Assembly (NCBI GenBank): GCA_964534625.1
Contig: CAZHRF010000012.1
Coordinates: forward strand, 8,501 to 72,500
Direction: 5' to 3'
Length of the DNA: 64,000 nucleotides
From: an uncultured archaeon
Lineage (GTDB): Archaea > Asgardarchaeota > Heimdallarchaeia > Heimdallarchaeales > Heimdallarchaeaceae
The notes under the pieces are model-generated. The model was not told the DNA's origin. It ran no database searches and was given only the letters and a program-made list of their open reading frames with translations. Each line of letters begins with the position of its first letter. The stretch's first letter is position 1. A program made the translations under genes and the position numbers. Positions 51,113 through 63,896 of this stretch are shown here, in pieces.

Positions 51113-52018
51113 TTATTCTGGAAGATCCTCTAGCTCTGTTTTAATAACTGTTATCCACTCCTTCACTGAATTAACAAACGCATTAAAAGCCCGCAAAACA
51201 TTTCTACCATTTAAACAGGAGATTAATTCACTCAAACATATTGTACCATATTTTTTACTCCATTCCGCCTCTATAGTAGATAATAATGCCTTTTGATCTT
51301 CAATGTCTTGATTTTCGATCAAATCAATTTTATTTCCTAAGATCATAATGGGAGGACAAATAACGTAAGAATAATGCTCAAGGAACGCCTCTAACCAATT
51401 TTCAATAGAATTAAAGGTATCTATATCAGTAACATCATAAATTAAAATTATCCCAAATGCTGACTTTGCATATAACCATAGCGATGAAGATTCTGGAACC
51501 TCTAGTATTATACTTTCTAACTCGGCATAAAAATTTTTCACTTTTCTATTTATTGAACCAAACAATACGCCAGGAGCGGGTCTATTGGGTGTATCGCCAG
51601 ACAGAGCATATACGAAAGATTGTTTGCCAACTTTTTCATCGCCTAAAATAACAATTCTACCACTGAAAGATTTTGTTATACGAGAAGGTTTTTCCTCACA
51701 TGGTTGAACTTTTATTGAAGAGAGATCGGGTAAATTACCTCCTTCTTGCCAAGCTATTTCAGTATAACTAGGCATAGTCTCCACATACCACTGCCAAAAC
51801 TCGTCTAAAATACATTCAATATTTTCTCTTAGAAGTGAATGAGCAACGTAAACTTTATTGTCTTCTCTAAAGAAACCCCAAGATTCAGGCATATTAAGCA
51901 GAAAAGTTTTGACTTTTTTGGGGTCGATATTAATTTTTTTTGCTATTTCAGTTTCATCAAGTGAGGAATGTGCCAACAAGTAATCATTCATAAATCCGAT
52001 GATTGTTTCTTTGTTCAT
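51113..52018 (-). CDS. Winged-helix plus degenerate Rab-like GTPase fusion
   Basis: N-terminal HTH (ETEIAKKINIDPKKV); GDEKVGKQS, IILIYDVTD, GNKID, ISCL; DxxG absent. Confidence 0.7.
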   Translation of the reverse strand: MNKETIIGFMNDYLLAHSSLDETEIAKKINIDPKKVKTFLLNMPESWGFFREDNKVYVAHSLLRENIECILDEFWQWYVETMPSYTEIAWQEGGNLPDLSSIKVQPCEEKPSRITKSFSGRIVILGDEKVGKQSFVYALSGDTPNRPAPGVLFGSINRKVKNFYAELESIILEVPESSSLWLYAKSAFGIILIYDVTDIDTFNSIENWLEAFLEHYSYVICPPIMILGNKIDLIENQDIEDQKALLSTIEAEWSKKYGTICLSELISCLNGRNVLRAFNAFVNSVKEWITVIKTELEDLPE

Positions 52019-52793: not shown

Positions 52794-55349
52794 TTAGATA
52801 TAGGGGGTATAATTTTGAAAATCATCAATTGGTATAATTTTTACTTTTTCTTCAAATAATATTGAAATTGATTCTATAGCACCAATTTTATTTAATGGTT
52901 TATTTCCATTGCCACATTGCCAACTATAGGTACATCTAGGACACCCGTCTACGGTGTTACATGAACATTTCTTGAGTATTTCTAGTGATCTTGAGAGACC
53001 TATTTTTAGTCTATCATACAATAGTTTTGATAAACCCGAACCACCCTTTGCCCCATCATATACAAAAATCGTTCCACTATCACCCATAGACACACCACCA
53101 ATCTCGGCTGTACCGCCTCCAGTTAACATTGAACTCGATTCAATTAGAACATGTTCAACAGCGTGGAATGTCCCTCCAAGTAATTCTTCCGGAGCTTTTG
53201 ATGGGTATTTTTTCAATATTTTTTCTGGAGAAGGCATTGTAAACATAAAACCTTTGGTTTTAAAAGAATATTCTATAGGATCTATTTGTTCTATTGATTT
53301 TAACTCACTTGTATAAATATCAGATACTTGATAGCCAAATATTGTTTCATTTATTTGCAAATCACAATAACGTACTTCCATTCCAGCTATATCCTTTTTT
53401 TCAAGAATTTCCAGAACATAGGGCATAGCAAAACGCATAGCTGCAGTTTTGTGGGTAACAGGGGATATTTCTTCAAGCAACACCTCACCTGCTGATAATA
53501 AAGGATAATATGTAAATGTCTTTGATTGATAATACCTCCCTCCGTGTAAATATATCGCCCCAGGATGAAGCTCCCGAGCAGCCATAGGCATAGATCGCTC
53601 CCCAATATACTTCTTTTGAGTATTTTTGAGTTTAATTGTATCTCCAATTCCTCTAATTGAATATTTGCTGAGTTTTTTTATGCTTTCTTTTCTATTTTTT
53701 ATTTCTAATTTACCAGTATTGGTCTTTTTTAACAAATTATCATCCAATAATTGTTTAAGGACCGCTGAATAATCGATAAAATTAGCCAGATTTATCGATT
53801 TTTCTACCGCTGCGGCCAATAACTGATAATATGAAACAATTTCATTTTTAGGTTCTACAAAACCTTGTCTAATATCAGTGAAATACGTATCGGGATGAGA
53901 CATATAATAAGTACTGATAGGATCATTATCTCTAAGAATAAGAACACCAATAGATTCTTGACCTTTCCGACCAGCTCGACCTAATCTTTGCACAAAACTT
54001 GTGAAATCAACAATAGATGATACAACCGCATCTACATCACCGATATCGATGCCTAGTTCTAAAGTGGGTGTTGCTATAATACAATCTAACTTCCCGTTTC
54101 TAAACGCTTGTTCCGTTCTTTCACGATATTTTTGTGGTAATCCCGCTCTGTGAACAGCACTTCGTAATTTCATCTTTTTAGTCATTAAATTAACAATTTC
54201 CGTGTTTTTGTGGCTATTCTGAAAACAAAGAGTTTTATAATCTGAATGAACCAACTGTCTCATCACGTCTGCAGTTAGGGTATATTGACTGACAGTTGAT
54301 GGATATAACATGATCAAATATGTAGGAGATTTTCTTGCATCATCAATTTGAATAGTTTCGATAGGCCTATCAAATAATTGTGTTCCAAATTCTTTTGCAT
54401 TTCCTATTGTTGCAGAGGCACCTATAAATTGAAGCGGATAAGAGGTTAATCTATCTAATCTTTTCAATATAAAAAACAAATTAGAACCAAATGCTCCTAC
54501 AGCTACATGGATCTCATCAACAATAATGTATTTTACCGAACGTATAATGCTTCTAAAAACAGGCCGACGTAAATGATAGTGAAGCATGTCAGGATTAGTG
54601 ATCATAATATCGGGGGGATAAGAATAGATCTCTTCTCTTTTAGACACAGGAGTATCGCCATCAAATATTGCACAGGTTATTGACAACTTGTTCCCCATTT
54701 CTTTTACCTTTTTCTGCTGATCTTTAGCAAGAGCTTTGGTGGGGTAGATAATGATAGCTTGAACACCTCTTCGCATTAAAGGATTAGGGTTATCATTCCA
54801 TATACATTGAAGAACTGGGAGCAAAAACGCTTCTGTTTTTCCTGTACCTGTGGGGGCAACAATGATAGTATCCATTCCTTGGATAATTTTTTCAAAAGCT
54901 TCAACTTGAAATGAATACAAAGATGTAAAGCCTTTTTCTTTAAGATATTCATGTAAAGAAGAAGTTAATTCCATGGGGCGTTCAGCAAGAGCAGGAGATT
55001 TAGGAGGCAAATAATTAAAATAGACCAGATCAACATCTTGATTACTAATAATATTTAGAACAGCCTTTGGAATGCTTTCTGGATTAATATCACATTTCGT
55101 AAGTAAGGTTTTCTTTTCTTTGATTGTTTGCGGTGGTGAAAAGACGGGTGACGAACCGGGAACACTAAATCTCGAAGAGTGAATTTTACGTTCTTTGGAG
55201 ACAGTAGAGCGTTTAACCAAGGATTCATATGCTTGAGATTTATTTTCTGAATAAATCTTTTCAGAAAAACCACAGAAGCGACATTGGAATACATAAATAA
55301 AGTCATGCTCGCTTTTATCTAAAGGTTTTCCACAATCAGGACACTTCAC
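52794..55349 (-). CDS. DEAD/DEAH helicase with C-terminal DUF1998 (Hrq1/MrfA/SftH-like)
   Basis: Q motif LYSFQ, APTGTGKT, YPTKALA, DEIH, SAT, TLELGIDIG, QRLGRAGR, HAVEH, YDGAKGGSG, CSC..GCPRC...C. Confidence 0.92.
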   Translation of the reverse strand: MKCPDCGKPLDKSEHDFIYVFQCRFCGFSEKIYSENKSQAYESLVKRSTVSKERKIHSSRFSVPGSSPVFSPPQTIKEKKTLLTKCDINPESIPKAVLNIISNQDVDLVYFNYLPPKSPALAERPMELTSSLHEYLKEKGFTSLYSFQVEAFEKIIQGMDTIIVAPTGTGKTEAFLLPVLQCIWNDNPNPLMRRGVQAIIIYPTKALAKDQQKKVKEMGNKLSITCAIFDGDTPVSKREEIYSYPPDIMITNPDMLHYHLRRPVFRSIIRSVKYIIVDEIHVAVGAFGSNLFFILKRLDRLTSYPLQFIGASATIGNAKEFGTQLFDRPIETIQIDDARKSPTYLIMLYPSTVSQYTLTADVMRQLVHSDYKTLCFQNSHKNTEIVNLMTKKMKLRSAVHRAGLPQKYRERTEQAFRNGKLDCIIATPTLELGIDIGDVDAVVSSIVDFTSFVQRLGRAGRKGQESIGVLILRDNDPISTYYMSHPDTYFTDIRQGFVEPKNEIVSYYQLLAAAVEKSINLANFIDYSAVLKQLLDDNLLKKTNTGKLEIKNRKESIKKLSKYSIRGIGDTIKLKNTQKKYIGERSMPMAARELHPGAIYLHGGRYYQSKTFTYYPLLSAGEVLLEEISPVTHKTAAMRFAMPYVLEILEKKDIAGMEVRYCDLQINETIFGYQVSDIYTSELKSIEQIDPIEYSFKTKGFMFTMPSPEKILKKYPSKAPEELLGGTFHAVEHVLIESSSMLTGGGTAEIGGVSMGDSGTIFVYDGAKGGSGLSKLLYDRLKIGLSRSLEILKKCSCNTVDGCPRCTYSWQCGNGNKPLNKIGAIESISILFEEKVKIIPIDDFQNYTPYI

Positions 55350-55756: not shown

Positions 55757-58700
55757 TCAATCATATTTTTTCATTAATAATCTCCTCGTAATGCTAATTG
55801 TTGCAACCAATACCACGATTCCAGTTATTAATAAAGAACTGAATATTGGATATATCATTGGTAATGTATCACGAACTATAGTAAAATCTTCCAAATCTGA
55901 TGAAGGTTTAATAATAATCGTCGATGAAAATACTGTCCACCCATAACTACTCTGTGAACTTTCTGTTATTGATTTTATATCAACCCTTAAACATAGGCTA
56001 GGATTGAATACTTCATTCTCTTTATCTGAAGAAAAATCTGTTTCTAGAATTTCATATAATGACACATATTCAACAATCAATGGCGTGATTTCTATATCTT
56101 CTTCATACGTTTTCATTTTTATCTTTATACTAATACTATCATTTGGTAAAAGTTCGTAATTTGATATATACTGCACATGTATGCTTCCATCACTAAGTGT
56201 TGTATTCACAGGTATTATTTGTTCACTATTATTGTTATTCACTCCATTGAACGTACAATACATGTTAAGAATATCTGCAAAATTTAGCTTTGAAAATATT
56301 TGCGATACTGTTACAGAAGTATTTGATTCTCCCTCATTTGTTATAGAATATTCCAGTTTTACTGTATTATCCATTTGTTCAATACCATAAGAAACCCTAA
56401 TTTCAGGTAGAGGAAAACTCGAACCTATTTGTTCTGATACTTGATCAGGTATTAACAACCCTAAGGCTAAGGTTGATGTAACAATATGCTCTGCTTCTCC
56501 TCCGTAAACCCACGTATATGTTTCTTGATCCCAAGGATTTGTGACTTCTATAGGTTCTTGTCCTTCTTCTGAAGTAAAAGATATATACGCCATATAACTG
56601 TTTAAACCTAGATGGCTATTCGCTCGCAATGTAAATGTATAGTTAATCGCATCTCCTGCATCAAGTTGCTCTAGACTTAATGTTTTTATCACTTTACTTT
56701 CTATAGGTTCCCATTTGTAATCAAGTTTTATATTTTTAATATCTATACGTATACCTGTTGCAGTTATTGTCCCACTATTTGCCAATTGAATATTAAAGTT
56801 TACTTGATCGCCAATGGTATACATCGTTTCATTGATAGTTAATTTTGAGTGTATTATAGCTTCATCGTCTGCCAATTGTAAATTCAAACCATTAGTTAAT
56901 CCAAAGTATTCATATCCATTTTCATCTAGATACCTGTACCTACTCCCTATTGAAATGAACTTTTCTATTTCTTTATTGTATTTTGAAAGATATCTCCCTG
57001 TAATATTGTTTTTTGCAAAATTTACTTGCATTAGTGTTTTATAATCGCTCTTGACGGTTCTGAAAACCAAATAATCGTTTTCTTCACTCTTTCTTCCAAA
57101 AAGTGTAAAAACCCCAAATTCATCATTTATTGTGGGTATATTTGATAATGACCATGTAATAGTTTTTGTTTCATTTACTTTAAGACGAGGTATTAGTACT
57201 TCTAAATAGGTCTGATATGTGCCAGCATAATACTCAAAATCTTCCGAATCATATTGGAAGATAGGTTTATTTTCATACACACTGTCAAATACAGTTTGAT
57301 AGGTATAATTTGTTGTTTCGAAGAGTTTTGTAAGTAATTCATCCATATTTTGCTCAAAATTCACAATAAAAGCAGCTAGATCTTCTGTTTGCTCCTCAAT
57401 CCACGGTATTACTGATGTTTCCAACCCTTCCGCAAAGTCACTAGGTAACCCATTTGAGCAGCTCAAACTTACATTGATTGAATCATCTTGTACCAATTCC
57501 ATATTAGATGTACTTTTATCCCACCTGAACAACGTATCATTTGATTTATACCACCCTTCAATGTCTAATATTCTAAACTCACCATCATATTTGTAAGAAT
57601 AAGTATCTGAATCCACATTAATTATTAGTGTTAAATTAGAGGATACATCAGGATCAACATTTATGCCATCTTTCATCACAGTAATTATTTCGTCTTTGGT
57701 AATTAATTGATCCAATTCTTCTGGCATGGGAAACCTAATAGTTGTATTTATTGCATCTTTATCCCCTATATTCTCTGCAGTATATGTCATATTTAGCACC
57801 CCCTCTTCATTTAATAAGCTGTCGGAATAAAAATTATTAACTTGTACTTTCGGGTAATTTTGGATATTTTTTTCTCCTGGGATATAAGATAGGTTTGCAT
57901 CAAAAGCCCCATCTCTTTGAAAACCTGTTGTTTTTAAGACCCATTCAAAATTTCCTGTCAACTGAGCAGCCACATTATCGGGAACTGGTGAAACATTGGT
58001 TATATTACCATAGAAGGGTATTTTCAAAGTGACTTTTGATATAAGAGATGAAGCTTTAGGTACTATTTTTTCTCCTAGTACATTAGATATGGTGAATGTT
58101 TTTTTCTCGATTTCTTGCTCTATTTTTCCAAGTATTGATATAATTGCTGATCGTGATAATTTAGTGGTCTCTCTATTTTTTCCCATAGTAATTGTACAAC
58201 CAAATGCATAAATCATAGAATTATTTTTAATATGTTCATAAAAAACACCCTCTATGTTTCCATCTTCTCTTACAGCATTTGTTGAGAACATATCAGCATA
58301 AGTTTGGAGAGTCTTTGCTTCACTTATACTTCCAATCAACCCGATTATTGTCTTCTCTTGAACAGTAATCTTTTCATTAAACTTGAACAAGTGTATATTA
58401 TAAGCTTCAAAAATATCCTCTTTCACCTCATTTTGTATAGAATCGACAATGCTAGGAGATGTTGAATCAATCTGTATAATAATACTCAATCCATCAGGAA
58501 ACTGCCAAAGAGGATTTTCCCACACATGGGCGTATTCAGATTGTTTTGCCACTACAAGAGTGATTTTATCAACATATCTATATTTTAATGTAGTAAGATC
58601 TAAAGGTAATAAAACGGAACCACCTGTGTGTTCAAGTTTTACAATAGCTGAATCATTTCGACCTAATAAGAAATCAATTTTTTCTTCCTCAAAATTGGTG

Positions 58701-58957
58701 GAATAATTTTCCATTGATAATGTACTTTTTTCAGGCTTTGCTTGAATTGAGAAAGGATAGAGAGAGGGGAAAAGAAGGGAGAAGAATATCAGAATAATAA
58801 TAGTATTTCTTATATTTTCTACTTTTCTTTTTAGAAAAGGCATAAAGGAAGGACACATTTTCTTTTTCCCCTCACTAAATAATATAATTTTCAACTTTGA
58901 TAAAGCTTTTTTTCTAAATTTCTTAAAGTTCGAAGTTCTATTTTTCTCGAATCTCAT
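55757..58957 (-). CDS. Large secreted/surface protein with Ig-like (CARDB-type) domains and C-terminal anchor
   Basis: Hydrophobic signal near residues 52-70; YTAENIGDKDAINT, QLANSGTITAT and YSITNEGES beta-sandwich motifs; C-terminal TM plus RR/KK. Confidence 0.7.
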   Translation of the reverse strand: MRFEKNRTSNFKKFRKKALSKLKIILFSEGKKKMCPSFMPFLKRKVENIRNTIIILIFFSLLFPSLYPFSIQAKPEKSTLSMENYSTNFEEEKIDFLLGRNDSAIVKLEHTGGSVLLPLDLTTLKYRYVDKITLVVAKQSEYAHVWENPLWQFPDGLSIIIQIDSTSPSIVDSIQNEVKEDIFEAYNIHLFKFNEKITVQEKTIIGLIGSISEAKTLQTYADMFSTNAVREDGNIEGVFYEHIKNNSMIYAFGCTITMGKNRETTKLSRSAIISILGKIEQEIEKKTFTISNVLGEKIVPKASSLISKVTLKIPFYGNITNVSPVPDNVAAQLTGNFEWVLKTTGFQRDGAFDANLSYIPGEKNIQNYPKVQVNNFYSDSLLNEEGVLNMTYTAENIGDKDAINTTIRFPMPEELDQLITKDEIITVMKDGINVDPDVSSNLTLIINVDSDTYSYKYDGEFRILDIEGWYKSNDTLFRWDKSTSNMELVQDDSINVSLSCSNGLPSDFAEGLETSVIPWIEEQTEDLAAFIVNFEQNMDELLTKLFETTNYTYQTVFDSVYENKPIFQYDSEDFEYYAGTYQTYLEVLIPRLKVNETKTITWSLSNIPTINDEFGVFTLFGRKSEENDYLVFRTVKSDYKTLMQVNFAKNNITGRYLSKYNKEIEKFISIGSRYRYLDENGYEYFGLTNGLNLQLADDEAIIHSKLTINETMYTIGDQVNFNIQLANSGTITATGIRIDIKNIKLDYKWEPIESKVIKTLSLEQLDAGDAINYTFTLRANSHLGLNSYMAYISFTSEEGQEPIEVTNPWDQETYTWVYGGEAEHIVTSTLALGLLIPDQVSEQIGSSFPLPEIRVSYGIEQMDNTVKLEYSITNEGESNTSVTVSQIFSKLNFADILNMYCTFNGVNNNNSEQIIPVNTTLSDGSIHVQYISNYELLPNDSISIKIKMKTYEEDIEITPLIVEYVSLYEILETDFSSDKENEVFNPSLCLRVDIKSITESSQSSYGWTVFSSTIIIKPSSDLEDFTIVRDTLPMIYPIFSSLLITGIVVLVATISITRRLLMKKYD

Positions 58958-58958
58958 T

Positions 58959-59786
58959 CTAATACCACACTCGACCGTTCATGAATAAGAAAGCCCCTAT
59001 ATTCATTATGTAAACTACCAATAAAGCAATGAACCCCGCTTTTTCTACCCTTAGATCTTTCGTTATTATCAATGCTTCAATCAAGAGCCCGATGTATATT
59101 ATTTGAACAAACACTAAAACAACTATATACCATAATTCTAAGGAAAGCGGATTCTCCAGATATGATGGGTCAATAACAATCCATTGAATTAATGATAATA
59201 AAATTAATGGTAATTGGATTAGCATAATGGATTGTAATAAAGGAAGTTTACTTGTTTTTCTTCTTTGAAAAAATATTCCAATAATTTGACATAAGAAATA
59301 TGACACAAACGTTGATATCACAAATAAAATTGGTGCCATATAGTTTGGTTCAATATGACTTGGAAACAAAAAAATGGGCGCAATTCCAGATAAGTGTGTT
59401 AATAGGACATAACCACTATAGAATAATAGTATAAATCCAAAAAATTTGATAGGTTCATTTTTTATCTGCTTAAAGAGAGATCTTAACAATAAAGTGTGAA
59501 CAAATGAGAAAGGTCCTGTCATCATTAGTCTTGCTGCATTAATATCAATTTCTTCTTCTATTAAATTGAAGGCTTTTTCACCTTTTGGTGTTAAATAATA
59601 TTGTTTCTCAGCGTTCTGTGATAAAAGAGGCCCTAGAGCATCCAAATGATGATATAACGTACCAACCTTCATTCTCGAATAATTTTTTAGCTCAGTGAAT
59701 GACACGATGCCTTTTTCTCCAATAAAACGGATCAAATCGCGCCTACTTTCATTTGCAAGTGCCTTCCACATATCGGCTTCTGACAT
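58959..59786 (-). CDS. ArsR-type winged-helix regulator fused to a five-TM membrane domain
   Basis: KALANESRRDLI...SFTEL...GTLYHHL...YYLTPKG, then five hydrophobic helices. Confidence 0.75.
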   Translation of the reverse strand: MSEADMWKALANESRRDLIRFIGEKGIVSFTELKNYSRMKVGTLYHHLDALGPLLSQNAEKQYYLTPKGEKAFNLIEEEIDINAARLMMTGPFSFVHTLLLRSLFKQIKNEPIKFFGFILLFYSGYVLLTHLSGIAPIFLFPSHIEPNYMAPILFVISTFVSYFLCQIIGIFFQRRKTSKLPLLQSIMLIQLPLILLSLIQWIVIDPSYLENPLSLELWYIVVLVFVQIIYIGLLIEALIITKDLRVEKAGFIALLVVYIMNIGAFLFMNGRVWY

Positions 59787-59865: not shown

Positions 59866-61008
59866 CTAATATTCTTTTACCACATTATATAAAGTATCTC
59901 TTTGAACGGGATGTTTTCCAGCATCTTTTATGATTCGTATAAATTCGTCTTCAGATAGATATTCTCCATGTCTAGCACCTGCTGCTTTAGAAATATTTTC
60001 TCTAAATAATGTACCTCCCAAGTCATTCACTCCACAGTTCAATGCTATTTGAGCTGCTTTTGGGCCCATTTTTATCCATGATGCTTGGATATTAGGTATT
60101 TTCTTTTTAAAATATAGTCTAGCTGTGGAGAAAAGGGCCAAATCTTCTAATCCTGTACTCCCCCTTCTAGCCCCATATTTTCTATAAAGATCTGTATTAT
60201 CAGGTATATACTGCAATGGTACAAATTCAGTAAAACCACCAGTTTTATCTTGAATATGTCGTAAAATTGCCAAGTGTTCTGCTTGATCAGAAATCGCCTC
60301 TATATGCCCATACATCATCGTAGAAGAAGATTTTAATCCCACTTTGTGTCCAGTTATTACAATATTTGCCCATTCAGTAGCTTTTATTTTTTGAGGGCAA
60401 ATTACATTTCTAGTTGAATCAACCAATATTTCTGCTGCAGTACCCGGGAAGCTGTCTAAACCATGGTCCTTTAAATCTTGAAATACTTCAACAATACTTT
60501 TTCCCGATAAATTAGCCATATAAGCAACTTCTTGTGGGGAAAATGCATGAATATGAAGGCTCTCGTCTACTTCCCGTACTGTATGTAAAATGCTAATGTA
60601 AAAATCATAAGTCAAGTTTGGGTCTAATCCGCCTTGGATACAAACTTCTTTAACTCCCCGTTCAACTGCATTAATAGTTTCCTGCCTAATATCTGATAAA
60701 TTTAACCGTAAATCATTACGTGTTTTCTTGTATGGATCTTTATGGAAGGCACAAAAAAGACATCCACCTATACAATATGGAGTGAAATTAATATTTTGGT
60801 TGATCACAAAAGAAACATTGTTTCCAACTATTCTCTTCGTCAGGTCATTTGCTTCTCTAATTTGTATTAACAAGTCATTATCTCTTTTATTGAGCAGTTG
60901 CTCTAATTTCAGAATTTGTTCATGATTTTTTTCTCTGAAGTTTTGCAAATTTAGATGGCATTCATATTCAAATTTGTCTAATTTTTTTCTAATCAATATC
61001 TCCCACAT
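59866..61008 (-). CDS. cofH: FO synthase subunit CofH (5-amino-6-ribitylaminouracil:L-tyrosine 4-hydroxyphenyl transferase)
   Basis: NINFT, radical SAM CIGGCLFC, EVCIQGG, HIHAFSP, PGTAAEIL, NIQASW, NDLGGT; adjacent to cofG. Confidence 0.92.
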   Translation of the reverse strand: MWEILIRKKLDKFEYECHLNLQNFREKNHEQILKLEQLLNKRDNDLLIQIREANDLTKRIVGNNVSFVINQNINFTPYCIGGCLFCAFHKDPYKKTRNDLRLNLSDIRQETINAVERGVKEVCIQGGLDPNLTYDFYISILHTVREVDESLHIHAFSPQEVAYMANLSGKSIVEVFQDLKDHGLDSFPGTAAEILVDSTRNVICPQKIKATEWANIVITGHKVGLKSSSTMMYGHIEAISDQAEHLAILRHIQDKTGGFTEFVPLQYIPDNTDLYRKYGARRGSTGLEDLALFSTARLYFKKKIPNIQASWIKMGPKAAQIALNCGVNDLGGTLFRENISKAAGARHGEYLSEDEFIRIIKDAGKHPVQRDTLYNVVKEY

Positions 61009-62059
61009 CCTTTATTATTTTTTTAATTCTTCTTGGTAAATATTTTTCCATTCTAGGATACACAGGTAATCTTTCTTTTAATTCAAGATTTTTTTTTCTC
61101 AATATACACATCAACGCTTTTTCTTTTGGCCATACCTCTGTAGGGTTAATGTGATCTTTAGTCAAAGGAGATATACCCCCCAAATCATTGGAACCATGTT
61201 CAATTGCAGCTAATAATCTATGAGTGTTTAAATTAGGTGGAATTTGAAGACTAACATTTGGTGGAAGGATTAGTCTACCTAAAGATACGACAAGAAGATA
61301 TTCATTGTCGGTTACACCTTTTTTATTCTCAAATTCGGTTCCACAGATAGGATTAAAGTTTTGAATTATCACTTCTTGAATATGATTATATTTTTTTGCA
61401 AGATTCGCGATTACCTGAAGAGATTCTATTCTATCCTTTAAGGTCTCACCAATACCTATTAAGATACCAGTTGTGAAAGGTATCTTCAGTTTTCCAGCAT
61501 TTTTTATTGTCTTTAACCTTTGTTCTGGATTTTTACCAGGGGAATTATAGTGTGCTTTTCCTTTCTTCAATAACTCTTTACTCGTTGTCTCAAGCATTAA
61601 TCCCATGCTTGCATTTACTTTCTTTAGCACTTTTAATTCTTCATAGTCCAATATTCCAAGATTTGAGTGAGGTAATAATTTTCTTTCCAAAGCTAATTCG
61701 CATAATTGTTTCACATAAAAGACAGTAGAACTATATCCTTTATCTTCAAGTATCCTTTTTGCACTTTTATATTTTAATTCCGGTTTTTCACCCATTGTCA
61801 ACAATACTTCTTTACAAGAGAGTTCTTGGGCTTTTGTTAACAAATTCAAATATTCTGTGTGTTCTATCCACGTTTTAGGATTATCAGAGACAAAACCACA
61901 ATATGAGCATTTATTTCTACATTGTCTAGTGACGGGTACAAATATATTTTTTGAAAAACTAATAAAATTACCATAATATTTTTTTCTTAATTCATTTGCT
62001 TTTTCTCTCAATTCATCAGGATCATTTACATATACGTCCATAAAGTCTTGTTCAACCAT
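60989..62059 (-). CDS. cofG: FO synthase subunit CofG
   Basis: SFSKNIFVPVT, CRNKCSYC, GEKPE, SMGLMLE, PFTTGILIGIGE, QIPPNL, DLGGISP, INP. Confidence 0.93.
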   Translation of the reverse strand: MVEQDFMDVYVNDPDELREKANELRKKYYGNFISFSKNIFVPVTRQCRNKCSYCGFVSDNPKTWIEHTEYLNLLTKAQELSCKEVLLTMGEKPELKYKSAKRILEDKGYSSTVFYVKQLCELALERKLLPHSNLGILDYEELKVLKKVNASMGLMLETTSKELLKKGKAHYNSPGKNPEQRLKTIKNAGKLKIPFTTGILIGIGETLKDRIESLQVIANLAKKYNHIQEVIIQNFNPICGTEFENKKGVTDNEYLLVVSLGRLILPPNVSLQIPPNLNTHRLLAAIEHGSNDLGGISPLTKDHINPTEVWPKEKALMCILRKKNLELKERLPVYPRMEKYLPRRIKKIIKDVGDID

Positions 62060-62065
62060 TTTAAA

Positions 62066-62734
62066 TTAGCCTTCCAATGTTAAGGTAAATAAAATCCCCG
62101 GTCCAATTTTTTTAGTGTTTACTATTGTAAATTTTGGGGCATCATCTATTCTTCTATCGACATCAAGATTAAACAGATTTAAACCATTTTTACTTCCTGT
62201 TAAGTAAGGTGCAACATAAAGAAACATTTTATCTACCAAGCGATTTTTTATCAAACTAGTTATTATCGTGCCTCCACCTTCAACTAAAATTTTTCCCATT
62301 GAGTATTTTTTTGCTAATATATCAAATATTTCTCCAAAATTTAATCTTCCACATTCATTTTGTTTAACTTGTTCTATCAAAGCGCCTTTATTTTTAAATC
62401 TCTTTTGTTTTTTCTCATTTACTTTATTACTGCAAAAAATAATTACGGGTGATGTGTCTATATCTTTGAAGATTTTTGCGTTAAGAGGAGTTCTACAAAA
62501 AGAGTCCAAGATTATTCTATTAGGCTGTTTAACCGTCTCAGATAGACGAATTGTCAATAAAGGATTGTCTATTAATATTGTGTTAATTCCTACAAGAACC
62601 CCATTAACAGTTGCCCTTAATTGATGAACACGTTTCCAATCGCTTTTTGATGATAGAGATAGTGATCCTTTATCTGATGCTATTATTCCATTTAATGTAC
62701 TCGCAACATTAATAATGACTTCCGGTCTGTTCAC
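62066..62734 (-). CDS. 2,5-diamino-6-(ribosylamino)-4(3H)-pyrimidinone 5'-phosphate reductase (RibD C-terminal domain only; ArfC/Rib7 type)
   Basis: ASTLNG, VHQLRA, VGINTILIDNPLLT, LVEGG; no N-terminal Zn deaminase domain. Confidence 0.88.
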   Translation of the reverse strand: MNRPEVIINVASTLNGIIASDKGSLSLSSKSDWKRVHQLRATVNGVLVGINTILIDNPLLTIRLSETVKQPNRIILDSFCRTPLNAKIFKDIDTSPVIIFCSNKVNEKKQKRFKNKGALIEQVKQNECGRLNFGEIFDILAKKYSMGKILVEGGGTIITSLIKNRLVDKMFLYVAPYLTGSKNGLNLFNLDVDRRIDDAPKFTIVNTKKIGPGILFTLTLEG

Positions 62735-62738
62735 TATA

Positions 62739-63896
62739 TCATCTTCCTATTATTTTTCCGTTGTACATTTGAAATAGTATATCGTCTGTTTTTGCTCTCA
62801 GAGTAACAGCTTTTATTGCATTATCAACATATCTTGTATTTAAAGTGTCAAGATCAATTGCAATAAAATTTGCCTTAAATCCTTTTGAGATCTGTCCAAT
62901 GTTCTTTTTGAGTATCATACCGGGGGTGACAGTAATAGCTTTTAATACGTCAATAGGATCTAATATAACAGAATATAATAAACGTTGAAGTACTAAGGTA
63001 ACCCTCATCAACTCAAATGGGTCAGGTGATGATGTCATCACATTATCAGTTCCTAGAGCAAATAGTATACCCATCTTCTTTAATTGATTCAAATCTAGAA
63101 ATTTTAATCCATAATAAATACTTGAAAGAGGACAAACAACTATACTTACATTTTTTTTCTTAATCATATCCAGCTCTTCTTCTTCAAGATAGTTTCCATG
63201 AACAATAAAATCTAACTTTAATTTAGTTAAACTAGTTACAAGATCCGATTCACCCATTTCTTCAATATATTTTGAACGAAATGTATCGTCTTCTGAAACA
63301 TGAATTGAAACAATTTTTTGTGGAAACTGGTTCTTTATAACATTTATCGCCTTTGAAATCTCTTGATTTAAACCATACGCATCACATAAACCCATCCCAT
63401 CTCCTTTAAACATTATCTGTTTTATCTCATTTGGATTTTTTGATCTTCCAAGTATTATCTCTTGAATTGGATATTTTTGACTTTTCTCTTTTAGTACCTC
63501 TATTCCTTTCAGACCACCTTCTCTAAAATCCACAAAACTAGTAAAACCGTTTTTCACAAGTAAAGATAGTGAATTTTCTATGCTTGTCAATAATTTGTTT
63601 GTTGGACTATTTGCAAGCATTTGGTGTTTCAATCCTTTTTCCCCAACAACGGCATCTAAAGTATACCCATAGCCTTCTTCTTTAATAATGGCATCGGCTA
63701 CATGGGTATGACAATTAATAAATCCAGGTAAGAGAATCGATCTTTCTGGTAGAATATAATCACATGGAGACTTTTCATTTTCAGCCTCATTATATTCAAT
63801 TTCAGAGATACTATCATTATCAATAGTTATAGTACAATTCTTTTTTAGTGTTAATTTAGGTCCAATTAACGCAAGAGGAGCAAATATATTATACAC
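62739..63896 (-). CDS. Amidohydrolase superfamily metallo-deaminase (ATZ/TRZ-like)
   Basis: PGFINCHTH, DFREGG, HVSE, VHG, LGTDN; first gene of the run ending in cofG and cofH. Confidence 0.85.
   Translation of the reverse strand: MYNIFAPLALIGPKLTLKKNCTITIDNDSISEIEYNEAENEKSPCDYILPERSILLPGFINCHTHVADAIIKEEGYGYTLDAVVGEKGLKHQMLANSPTNKLLTSIENSLSLLVKNGFTSFVDFREGGLKGIEVLKEKSQKYPIQEIILGRSKNPNEIKQIMFKGDGMGLCDAYGLNQEISKAINVIKNQFPQKIVSIHVSEDDTFRSKYIEEMGESDLVTSLTKLKLDFIVHGNYLEEEELDMIKKKNVSIVVCPLSSIYYGLKFLDLNQLKKMGILFALGTDNVMTSSPDPFELMRVTLVLQRLLYSVILDPIDVLKAITVTPGMILKKNIGQISKGFKANFIAIDLDTLNTRYVDNAIKAVTLRAKTDDILFQMYNGKIIGR

What the first reader, a model, noticed from the sequence alone, without database searches (positions are those of the whole stretch)
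59866..63896. Amidohydrolase heads a RibD-reductase/cofG/cofH operon: candidate for the unassigned archaeal riboflavin/F420 precursor deaminase
Seen: four tightly packed minus-strand genes (gaps of 4 and 6 bp, then an overlap) encode a metallo-deaminase-type amidohydrolase (HxH, HxxE, H, D), a reductase-only RibD lacking the Zn deaminase domain, CofG and CofH. Established: CofG/CofH consume 5-amino-6-ribitylaminouracil, whose synthesis needs both reduction and C2 deamination of the diaminopyrimidinone. Archaea generally carry the reductase alone, and to my knowledge the deaminase is not firmly assigned. Inference: 62739..63896 supplies that step through a non-orthologous TIM-barrel fold. The operon also implies that this organism makes deazaflavin (FO/F420).
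Basis: partly seen in the sequence, partly recalled or inferred. Interest (0 to 1): 0.75.

Follow-up and report, generated by a model that had tools for sequence, protein, structure and literature searches.

The report
Predicted archaeal F420 precursor deaminase operon
This Asgard archaeon has a four-gene operon for the core of coenzyme F420, and its first gene very probably encodes the apparently never-assayed archaeal deaminase of the shared flavin/F420 precursor, but this protein family was already proposed for that job in 2010 and 2017, so it is a well-supported rediscovery.

Summary
The four genes are real and as described: amidohydrolase, reductase-only ArfC, CofG, CofH. Relatives place the host in Heimdallarchaeaceae. 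The amidohydrolase is this genome's best match to M. jannaschii MJ0699, the published, untested 'PyrD' candidate (Osterman 2010; Rodionova 2017). A close relative of MJ0699 is already annotated 'Pyrimidine deaminase archaeal predicted'. So the idea is not new, and this scan has reported it before on other genomes. My tests support it. Among 201 Asgard genomes, all 95 with cofG and 28 of 29 with a lumazine-synthase-family gene carry the orthologue, and 102 carry none of the three. It lies directly upstream of arfC in 90 of 98 carriers. No bifunctional RibD was found. In Thaumarchaeota it sits in riboflavin operons without cofGH, which argues against 5'-deoxyadenosine clean-up. One correction: this genome and 19 of 20 family relatives lack ribH, so here the pathway probably serves F420 only. 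I found no report of an assay, and the protein scores below the curated PRK07213 cut-off. Verdict: new member of a known predicted family, about 0.8 likely to be the deaminase.

The parts
62739..63896 (-). MJ0699/'PyrD'-type metallo-amidohydrolase (385 aa), predicted DARIPP C2 deaminase
   Evidence: PRK07213 240.8 bits, cut-off 294; 30% identity to MJ0699 over 351 aa, E 3e-40; best MJ0699 hit in the genome; AF2 model pLDDT 97 with nucleobase-deaminase fold neighbours
62066..62734 (-). ArfC/Rib7-type stand-alone pyrimidine reductase (222 aa), no deaminase domain
   Evidence: TIGR00227 158.3 (above cut-off); TIGR01508 156.7 (cut-off 186.45); TIGR00326 matched only at 141-342
60989..62059 (-). 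CofG, FO synthase subunit (radical SAM)
   Evidence: TIGR03550 398.9 and PRK06245 413.3, both above cut-off; CxxxCxxC motif visible in the sequence
59866..61008 (-). CofH, FO synthase subunit (radical SAM)
   Evidence: TIGR03551 432.8, above cut-off 374.1; overlaps the cofG end by 20 bp if the ATG at 61008 is the start

Best explanation
The operon makes FO, the deazaflavin core of F420. ArfC reduces the ribosyl side chain of 2,5-diamino-6-ribosylamino-4(3H)-pyrimidinone 5'-phosphate to give DARIPP (established for ArfC/Rib7; inferred for this copy). The amidohydrolase then deaminates C2 of DARIPP to give ARIPP plus ammonia (inferred). By analogy with cytosine, guanine and adenosine deaminases of this superfamily, one metal is held by H63, H65, H199 and D284, and H233 and E202 serve water activation and proton transfer. 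The conserved K90, R125 and R151 are candidate phosphate binders (inferred, not tested). An unknown phosphatase frees ribitylaminouracil, CofH and CofG condense it with tyrosine to FO (established chemistry), and CofC, CofD and CofE encoded elsewhere finish F420. In this lineage the trunk feeds F420 only, and riboflavin is probably salvaged. The entry step may be the stand-alone RibA on another contig, but that link is weak.
For: Orthology to the published candidate MJ0699. Invariant deaminase-type residues. Fold neighbours include adenosine/MTA, isocytosine and guanine deaminases; isocytosine is the 2-amino-4-pyrimidinone core of DARIPP (own chemistry knowledge). Co-occurrence in 201 Asgard genomes: 95 of 95 cofG genomes, 28 of 29 ribH-family genomes, 102 with none of the three; directly upstream of arfC in 90 of 98; all 98 carriers have ArfC. 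It follows the shared trunk: 69 carriers have cofG without ribH, G024 and G046 have ribH without cofG, and in 46 of 46 loci from Thaumarchaeota, Bathyarchaeia and similar lineages it lies beside rib or cof genes (arfA 44, arfC 41, ribH 40, cofG 3). No bifunctional RibD over cut-off in 201 genomes. The genome's two CDA-fold proteins look like a dCMP deaminase and a cytidine deaminase. Single-contig genome G004 has a bacterial-type ribE-ribBA-ribH operon with no ribD, so its only visible reductase and deaminase candidates are ArfC and this protein.
Against: I found no assay or mutant for any family member. The score is below the curated PRK07213 cut-off, and two family-typical residues differ (L257 for R, S259 for N). 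No clustering with rib or cof genes in 34 Methanobacteriales and 6 Thermoplasmatota loci, and in 7 of 8 Methanococcales loci. A related, probably bacterial branch lies in catabolic clusters without rib or cof genes. G162 has the gene plus arfC but no cofG or ribH; G121 has ribH and arfA but not this gene. Related genomes are not independent observations, and I set the orthologue threshold after seeing the scores.
Confidence: 0.8

Rival explanations
1. It is the pathway deaminase but acts on a different intermediate: the unreduced DAROPP (bacterial order) or the dephosphorylated ribityl-pyrimidine.
For: The genome uses a bacterial-type RibA rather than ArfA. Most structural neighbours act on bases or nucleosides, not nucleotides.
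Against: The archaeal and fungal route is reduction first. The conserved K90, R125 and R151 would suit a phosphorylated substrate (inference).
Confidence: 0.08
2. It is a housekeeping 5'-deoxyadenosine / SAH / MTA deaminase (DadD/MtaD-like) that removes the radical-SAM by-product of CofG and CofH.
For: Within 3 kb of cofG in 68 of 98 Asgard carriers. The top Foldseek hits include adenosine/MTA deaminases.
Against: It scores 69 bits on PRK07228 (cut-off 522), while an unlinked paralogue scores 473 and another is MtaD-like. Its constant neighbour is arfC, not cofGH. It sits in rib operons without cofGH and occurs in genomes where cofG was not found (G024, G046). The tree separates it from those paralogues with support 99.
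Confidence: 0.05
3. It performs another hydrolytic step of the trunk, such as deformylation (an ArfB substitute) or opening of the guanine ring, alone or in addition to deamination.
For: About 40 genomes of one Lokiarchaeia-like family and single-contig genome G007 have this gene with arfC and cofG but neither ArfA nor RibA. The superfamily includes deformylases (own knowledge).
Against: It sits beside both arfA and an arfB-like gene in the same operons, so it does not replace them. HxxE plus H and D is the deaminase-type set. This genome has RibA, which needs no deformylase. The deamination step would be left without any candidate.
Confidence: 0.04
4. It is an unrelated base or nucleoside deaminase carried along in a cofactor gene cluster.
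For: Not clustered in methanogens; a related branch lies in catabolic loci.
Against: Near-perfect co-occurrence, and recurring adjacency to different pathway genes (arfA, arfC, ribH, ribA, cofG) in different lineages.
Confidence: 0.03

Closest known systems
'PyrD', the predicted archaeal pyrimidine deaminase: MJ0699 (UniProt Q58110) / HVO_2483; annotated 'Pyrimidine deaminase archaeal predicted' in M. lauensis; NCBIfam NF005552 (PRK07213); Osterman et al. 2010 as cited in Rodionova et al. 2017 (PMC5397151); Pfeiffer-type curation in PMC8305020
   Same: Same orthologous group (30% identity to MJ0699, best hit in the genome, same side of the tree), same catalytic residues, same clustering with arfC and other pathway genes, same predicted reaction, equally untested.
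   Different: Divergent: below the NF005552 cut-off, with CPLSS in place of CPRxN. It is coupled to cofG-cofH in a lineage without ribH/ribB/ribE and without ArfA, so it probably serves F420 only.
Fungal Rib2 deaminase domain and bacterial RibD/RibG N-terminal deaminase (CDA fold; PMC8256712)
   Same: Same predicted step; for Rib2 the same substrate (DARIPP, after reduction).
   Different: Unrelated fold: CDA Zn deaminase versus amidohydrolase TIM barrel. A non-orthologous replacement if confirmed.
DadD/MtaD 5'-deoxyadenosine and MTA/SAH deaminases; guanine, 8-oxoguanine and isocytosine deaminases
   Same: Same superfamily, fold (TM-score about 0.85-0.89) and metal/HxxE chemistry.
   Different: Only 13-19% structural sequence identity. 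Family-specific HxHxxD, K90, DFRE, R151 and TDN motifs. Separate paralogues fill those roles in this genome.

Membership tests
MJ0699/'PyrD' orthologous group | Full-length homology to MJ0699 and best hit in the genome | tested here: met
   30% over 351 aa, E 3e-40; 142.6 bits versus 43 for the next paralogue. The reverse search against the whole M. jannaschii proteome was not run.
MJ0699/'PyrD' orthologous group | Groups with MJ0699 apart from the TRZ/ATZ paralogues | tested here: met
   Quick ML tree: the four paralogues of this genome form one side of a branch with SH-aLRT 99; the careful search did not finish.
MJ0699/'PyrD' orthologous group | Clustering and co-occurrence with riboflavin/F420 trunk genes | tested here: met
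MJ0699/'PyrD' orthologous group | Metal and catalytic residues HxH, HxxE, H, D | tested here: met
   H63, H65, H199, E202, H233, D284 invariant in 109 of 109.
MJ0699/'PyrD' orthologous group | Deamination of DARIPP | not testable with these tools
   No assay found for any member.
NCBIfam equivalog NF005552 (PRK07213) | Score at or above the curated cut-off of 294 bits | tested here: not met
   240.8 bits; only 9 of 201 Asgard genomes pass. Not filed as a formal NF005552 member; it is the best model by 159 bits.
DadD/MtaD 5'-deoxyadenosine or MTA/SAH deaminase | Family HMM score (PRK07228, PRK08393, PRK06038, PRK15493) | tested here: not met
   69, 82, 54 and 48 bits against cut-offs of 522-779.
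RibD/Rib2 CDA-fold pyrimidine deaminase | dCMP_cyt_deam / Inv-AAD domain | tested here: not met
   Neither gene 1 nor gene 2 hits it; the genome has only dCMP-deaminase-like and cytidine-deaminase proteins and no Inv-AAD hit.
ArfC equivalog TIGR01508 (gene 2) | Score at or above 186.45 bits | tested here: not met
   156.7 bits; the RibD C-terminal domain model TIGR00227 is met. It works like ArfC by domain content and context.
CofG / CofH (genes 3 and 4) | TIGR03550 and TIGR03551 above cut-off | tested here: met
   398.9 and 432.8 bits.

The most novel reading that the evidence does not exclude
In F420-only Asgard lineages the pyrimidine trunk starts with an unrecognised enzyme. About 40 genomes of one Lokiarchaeia-like family and the single-contig Heimdallarchaeaceae genome G007 carry amidohydrolase-arfC-cofG but neither ArfA nor RibA, and RibA in Asgards does not track the pathway. 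The missing entry could come from the MptA GTP cyclohydrolase that lies head-to-head with the operon in that family, or from a second activity of this amidohydrolase. The gap itself is seen here; either of these named mechanisms is speculative.
Probability: 0.12. Interest if true: 0.6.

Novelty: new member of a known kind. Interest (0 to 1): 0.3.

Why it matters
The archaeal pyrimidine deaminase is one of the last unproven steps of riboflavin and F420 synthesis. Confirming it would show a TIM-barrel replacement for the CDA-fold RibD/Rib2 and would correct many 'chlorohydrolase' or 'SAH deaminase' annotations. This locus does not make the test easier, since MJ0699 and HVO_2483 are already the obvious targets. 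It adds circumstantial support: the gene stays when riboflavin synthesis is lost and when cofG is missing. It also suggests that most Heimdallarchaeaceae make F420 but must take up riboflavin.

Tried and rejected
Solved relatives: none close in the PDB by sequence or fold (best E 1e-8 by phmmer; at most 19% identity by Foldseek), so substrate contacts could not be read off a template. HVO_2483 itself was not retrieved; haloarchaeal plasmid homologues show no rib/cof context. RNA runs: no RNA holder was listed, so co-transcription is untested. The M. maripaludis essential-gene paper is not held, and the supplement of Rodionova 2017 is not held. Osterman 2010 is a book chapter that I could not read; it is cited through PMC5397151. 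RibA as a pathway marker was rejected: it is present in 46 of 56 genomes of a family with no orthologue of this gene, cofG or ribH. No FMN riboswitch or ribD remnant was found at the G004 rib operon. Bacterial-like homologues did not give supporting context. The antisense ORF 62268..62624 (+) lies inside arfC and was treated as a shadow frame. No complex prediction was run because no binding claim is made.
Full report
Observation. The four ORFs lie on the minus strand at 63896..62739, 62734..62066, 62059..60989 and 61008..59866, with gaps of 4 and 6 bp and a 20-bp overlap. Profile searches give an amidohydrolase (best model PRK07213, 240.8 bits, cut-off 294), a RibD C-terminal domain without a deaminase domain, and CofG and CofH above their cut-offs. 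The contig ends 104 bp upstream of the first gene. The nearest named homologues are from Candidatus Heimdallarchaeaceae (41-44% identity), so the host is very probably a Heimdall-type Asgard archaeon. A TATA-like stretch lies between cofH and the next gene, which suggests the unit ends at cofH (inference).

Identity of the first gene. I recalled MJ0699 from memory and checked it. PMC8305020 lists HVO_2483 and MJ0699 (Q58110) as the predicted missing enzyme and says it needs experimental confirmation. PMC5397151 states that an archaeal pyrimidine deaminase candidate 'PyrD' was proposed from clustering and co-occurrence (Osterman et al. 2010) and remains to be tested. I retrieved MJ0699 as P0405, and a neighbouring cluster holds a M. 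lauensis protein named 'Pyrimidine deaminase archaeal predicted'. MJ0699 scores 589 bits on PRK07213. The window protein is 30% identical to it over 351 residues and is its best hit in this genome by about 100 bits. A quick ML tree separates the four other TRZ/ATZ/SsnA-like proteins of this genome from all these sequences with support 99. In 109 homologues H63, H65, D68, H199, E202, H233, D284 and N285 are invariant, and K90, R125, E126 and R151 nearly so; the window protein departs at L257 (R in 93) and S259 (N in 100). The AlphaFold model (pLDDT 97) matches adenosine/MTA, isocytosine and guanine deaminases and triazine hydrolases at no more than 19% identity. No close solved relative was found.

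Synteny. Amidohydrolase-arfC-cofG recurs in 19 of 19 family loci; cofH follows where longer regions were read. In 201 Asgard genomes at least 85% complete I counted 98 orthologues (about 137 bits or more on PRK07213, plus one split gene; the longer paralogues score 119 or less; the threshold was set after seeing the scores). Ninety lie directly upstream of arfC, 68 within 3 kb of cofG and 14 within 3 kb of ribH, with no genome in both of the last two groups. Some Asgards have ribB-ribC-ribH-arfA-gene-arfC; a sister family has it beside ribH, or beside arfC and ribA. Outside Asgards, 46 of 46 loci from Thaumarchaeota, Bathyarchaeia and similar lineages carry rib or cof neighbours, while Methanobacteriales (0 of 34), Thermoplasmatota (0 of 6) and most Methanococcales (1 of 8) do not. 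A probably bacterial side branch lies in catabolic clusters, so family membership alone does not fix function.

Co-occurrence. All 95 cofG genomes and 28 of 29 genomes with a lumazine-synthase-family hit (one of them weak and probably RibC) have the gene; 102 have none of the three. The exceptions are G162 (gene plus arfC only) and G121 (ribH and arfA without the gene). Sixty-nine carriers have cofG without ribH, and two have ribH without cofG. The gene therefore follows the shared precursor rather than either branch. These genomes are related and incomplete, so the counts are not independent trials. No genome has a bifunctional RibD above cut-off. This genome's two CDA-fold proteins are stand-alone dCMP-deaminase-like and cytidine-deaminase proteins, and no Rib2-like Inv-AAD domain was found. 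Single-contig genome G004 has a bacterial-type ribE-ribBA-ribH operon with no ribD before it and only the ArfC hit to the RibD model. That is what one expects if ArfC plus this enzyme already cover both steps (inference).

Pathway in this organism. ribH, ribB, ribE and arfA were not found in this 90%-complete genome, and ribH is missing in 19 of 20 other family members. RibA, CofD, two CofE-family genes and the CTP-dependent riboflavin kinase are present; a CofC-like ORF lies two genes after cofD (my reading, not profile-tested). So the operon probably serves F420 only, and riboflavin is probably taken up. F420 genes in Heimdallarchaeota are already reported (PMC8498797).

Mechanism. Shown: gene identities, residues, fold, context, and the absence of other candidates. 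Established: ArfC/Rib7 reduces before deamination in archaea and fungi, and CofH/CofG use ribitylaminouracil. Inferred: metal-activated water attacks C2 of DARIPP and releases ammonia to give ARIPP (0.8). Rivals are another intermediate of the same trunk (0.08), 5'-deoxyadenosine clean-up (0.05; an unlinked paralogue scores 473 bits on that model against 69 here), another trunk hydrolysis (0.04) and an unrelated deaminase (0.03).

Open end. RibA does not track the pathway. About 40 genomes of one Lokiarchaeia-like family and G007 lack both RibA and ArfA. In that family an mptA gene lies head-to-head with the operon, but methanopterin-type genes follow cofH there, so plain cofactor clustering can explain it.

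Verdict. A real, conserved operon and a probably correct inference, but a rediscovery of a prediction published in 2010 and 2017 and noted repeatedly in this scan. New member of a known, still unproven kind. Interest 0.3.

Noticed in passing
L063-L081, L206:12253-13227, L209:11497-12441 (family f14): GTP cyclohydrolase MptA lies head-to-head directly upstream of the amidohydrolase in every f14 locus read; 40 of 47 f14 operon carriers have neither ArfA nor RibA, so the first step of FO synthesis has no known enzyme there.
   Followed up: partly
L039:6261-8612 (G004): Bacterial-type ribE-ribBA-ribH operon without ribD and without an Rfam riboswitch; the only riboflavin synthesis genes among 21 genomes of the family, probably acquired horizontally.
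   Followed up: partly
G000:C32:22140-22826 (L023) and family f11: Stand-alone RibA is present in 46 of 56 f11 genomes that have no orthologue of this amidohydrolase, no cofG and no ribH, which suggests an orphan role for GTP cyclohydrolase II in Asgards.
   Followed up: no
L002-L018, upstream of the amidohydrolase: In most family members an EF-2-like GTPase gene (start MVRVKNP..., HIDHGK motif) lies head-to-head with the operon; the window's contig ends before this position.
   Followed up: no
window 58959-59786 and 55757-58957 (-): An HTH (DUF7347-like) plus membrane protein and a 1066-aa probably secreted protein follow cofH; a similar pair follows cofH in G004 (L040).
   Followed up: no
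L194, L196, L200: A probably bacterial branch of this family sits among other amidohydrolases, luciferase-like and PrpD-like genes, suggesting a catabolic heterocycle deaminase role.
   Followed up: partly
L034 (G024): G024 has rib genes, this amidohydrolase and two CofE-family genes but no cofG hit: FO uptake, recent loss or an assembly gap.
   Followed up: no
G099:C244, G068:C43, G178:C32, G130:C10, G124:C4, G087:C140: Long ORFs (278-772 aa) in family f11 carry a RibD-like CDA deaminase domain without a reductase domain; function not examined.
   Followed up: no
window 52794-55349 and 51113-52018 (-): A DEAD/DEAH helicase with a C-terminal Cys cluster (looks Hrq1/MrfA-like, from memory) and a protein with a C-terminal small-GTPase domain.
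   Followed up: no
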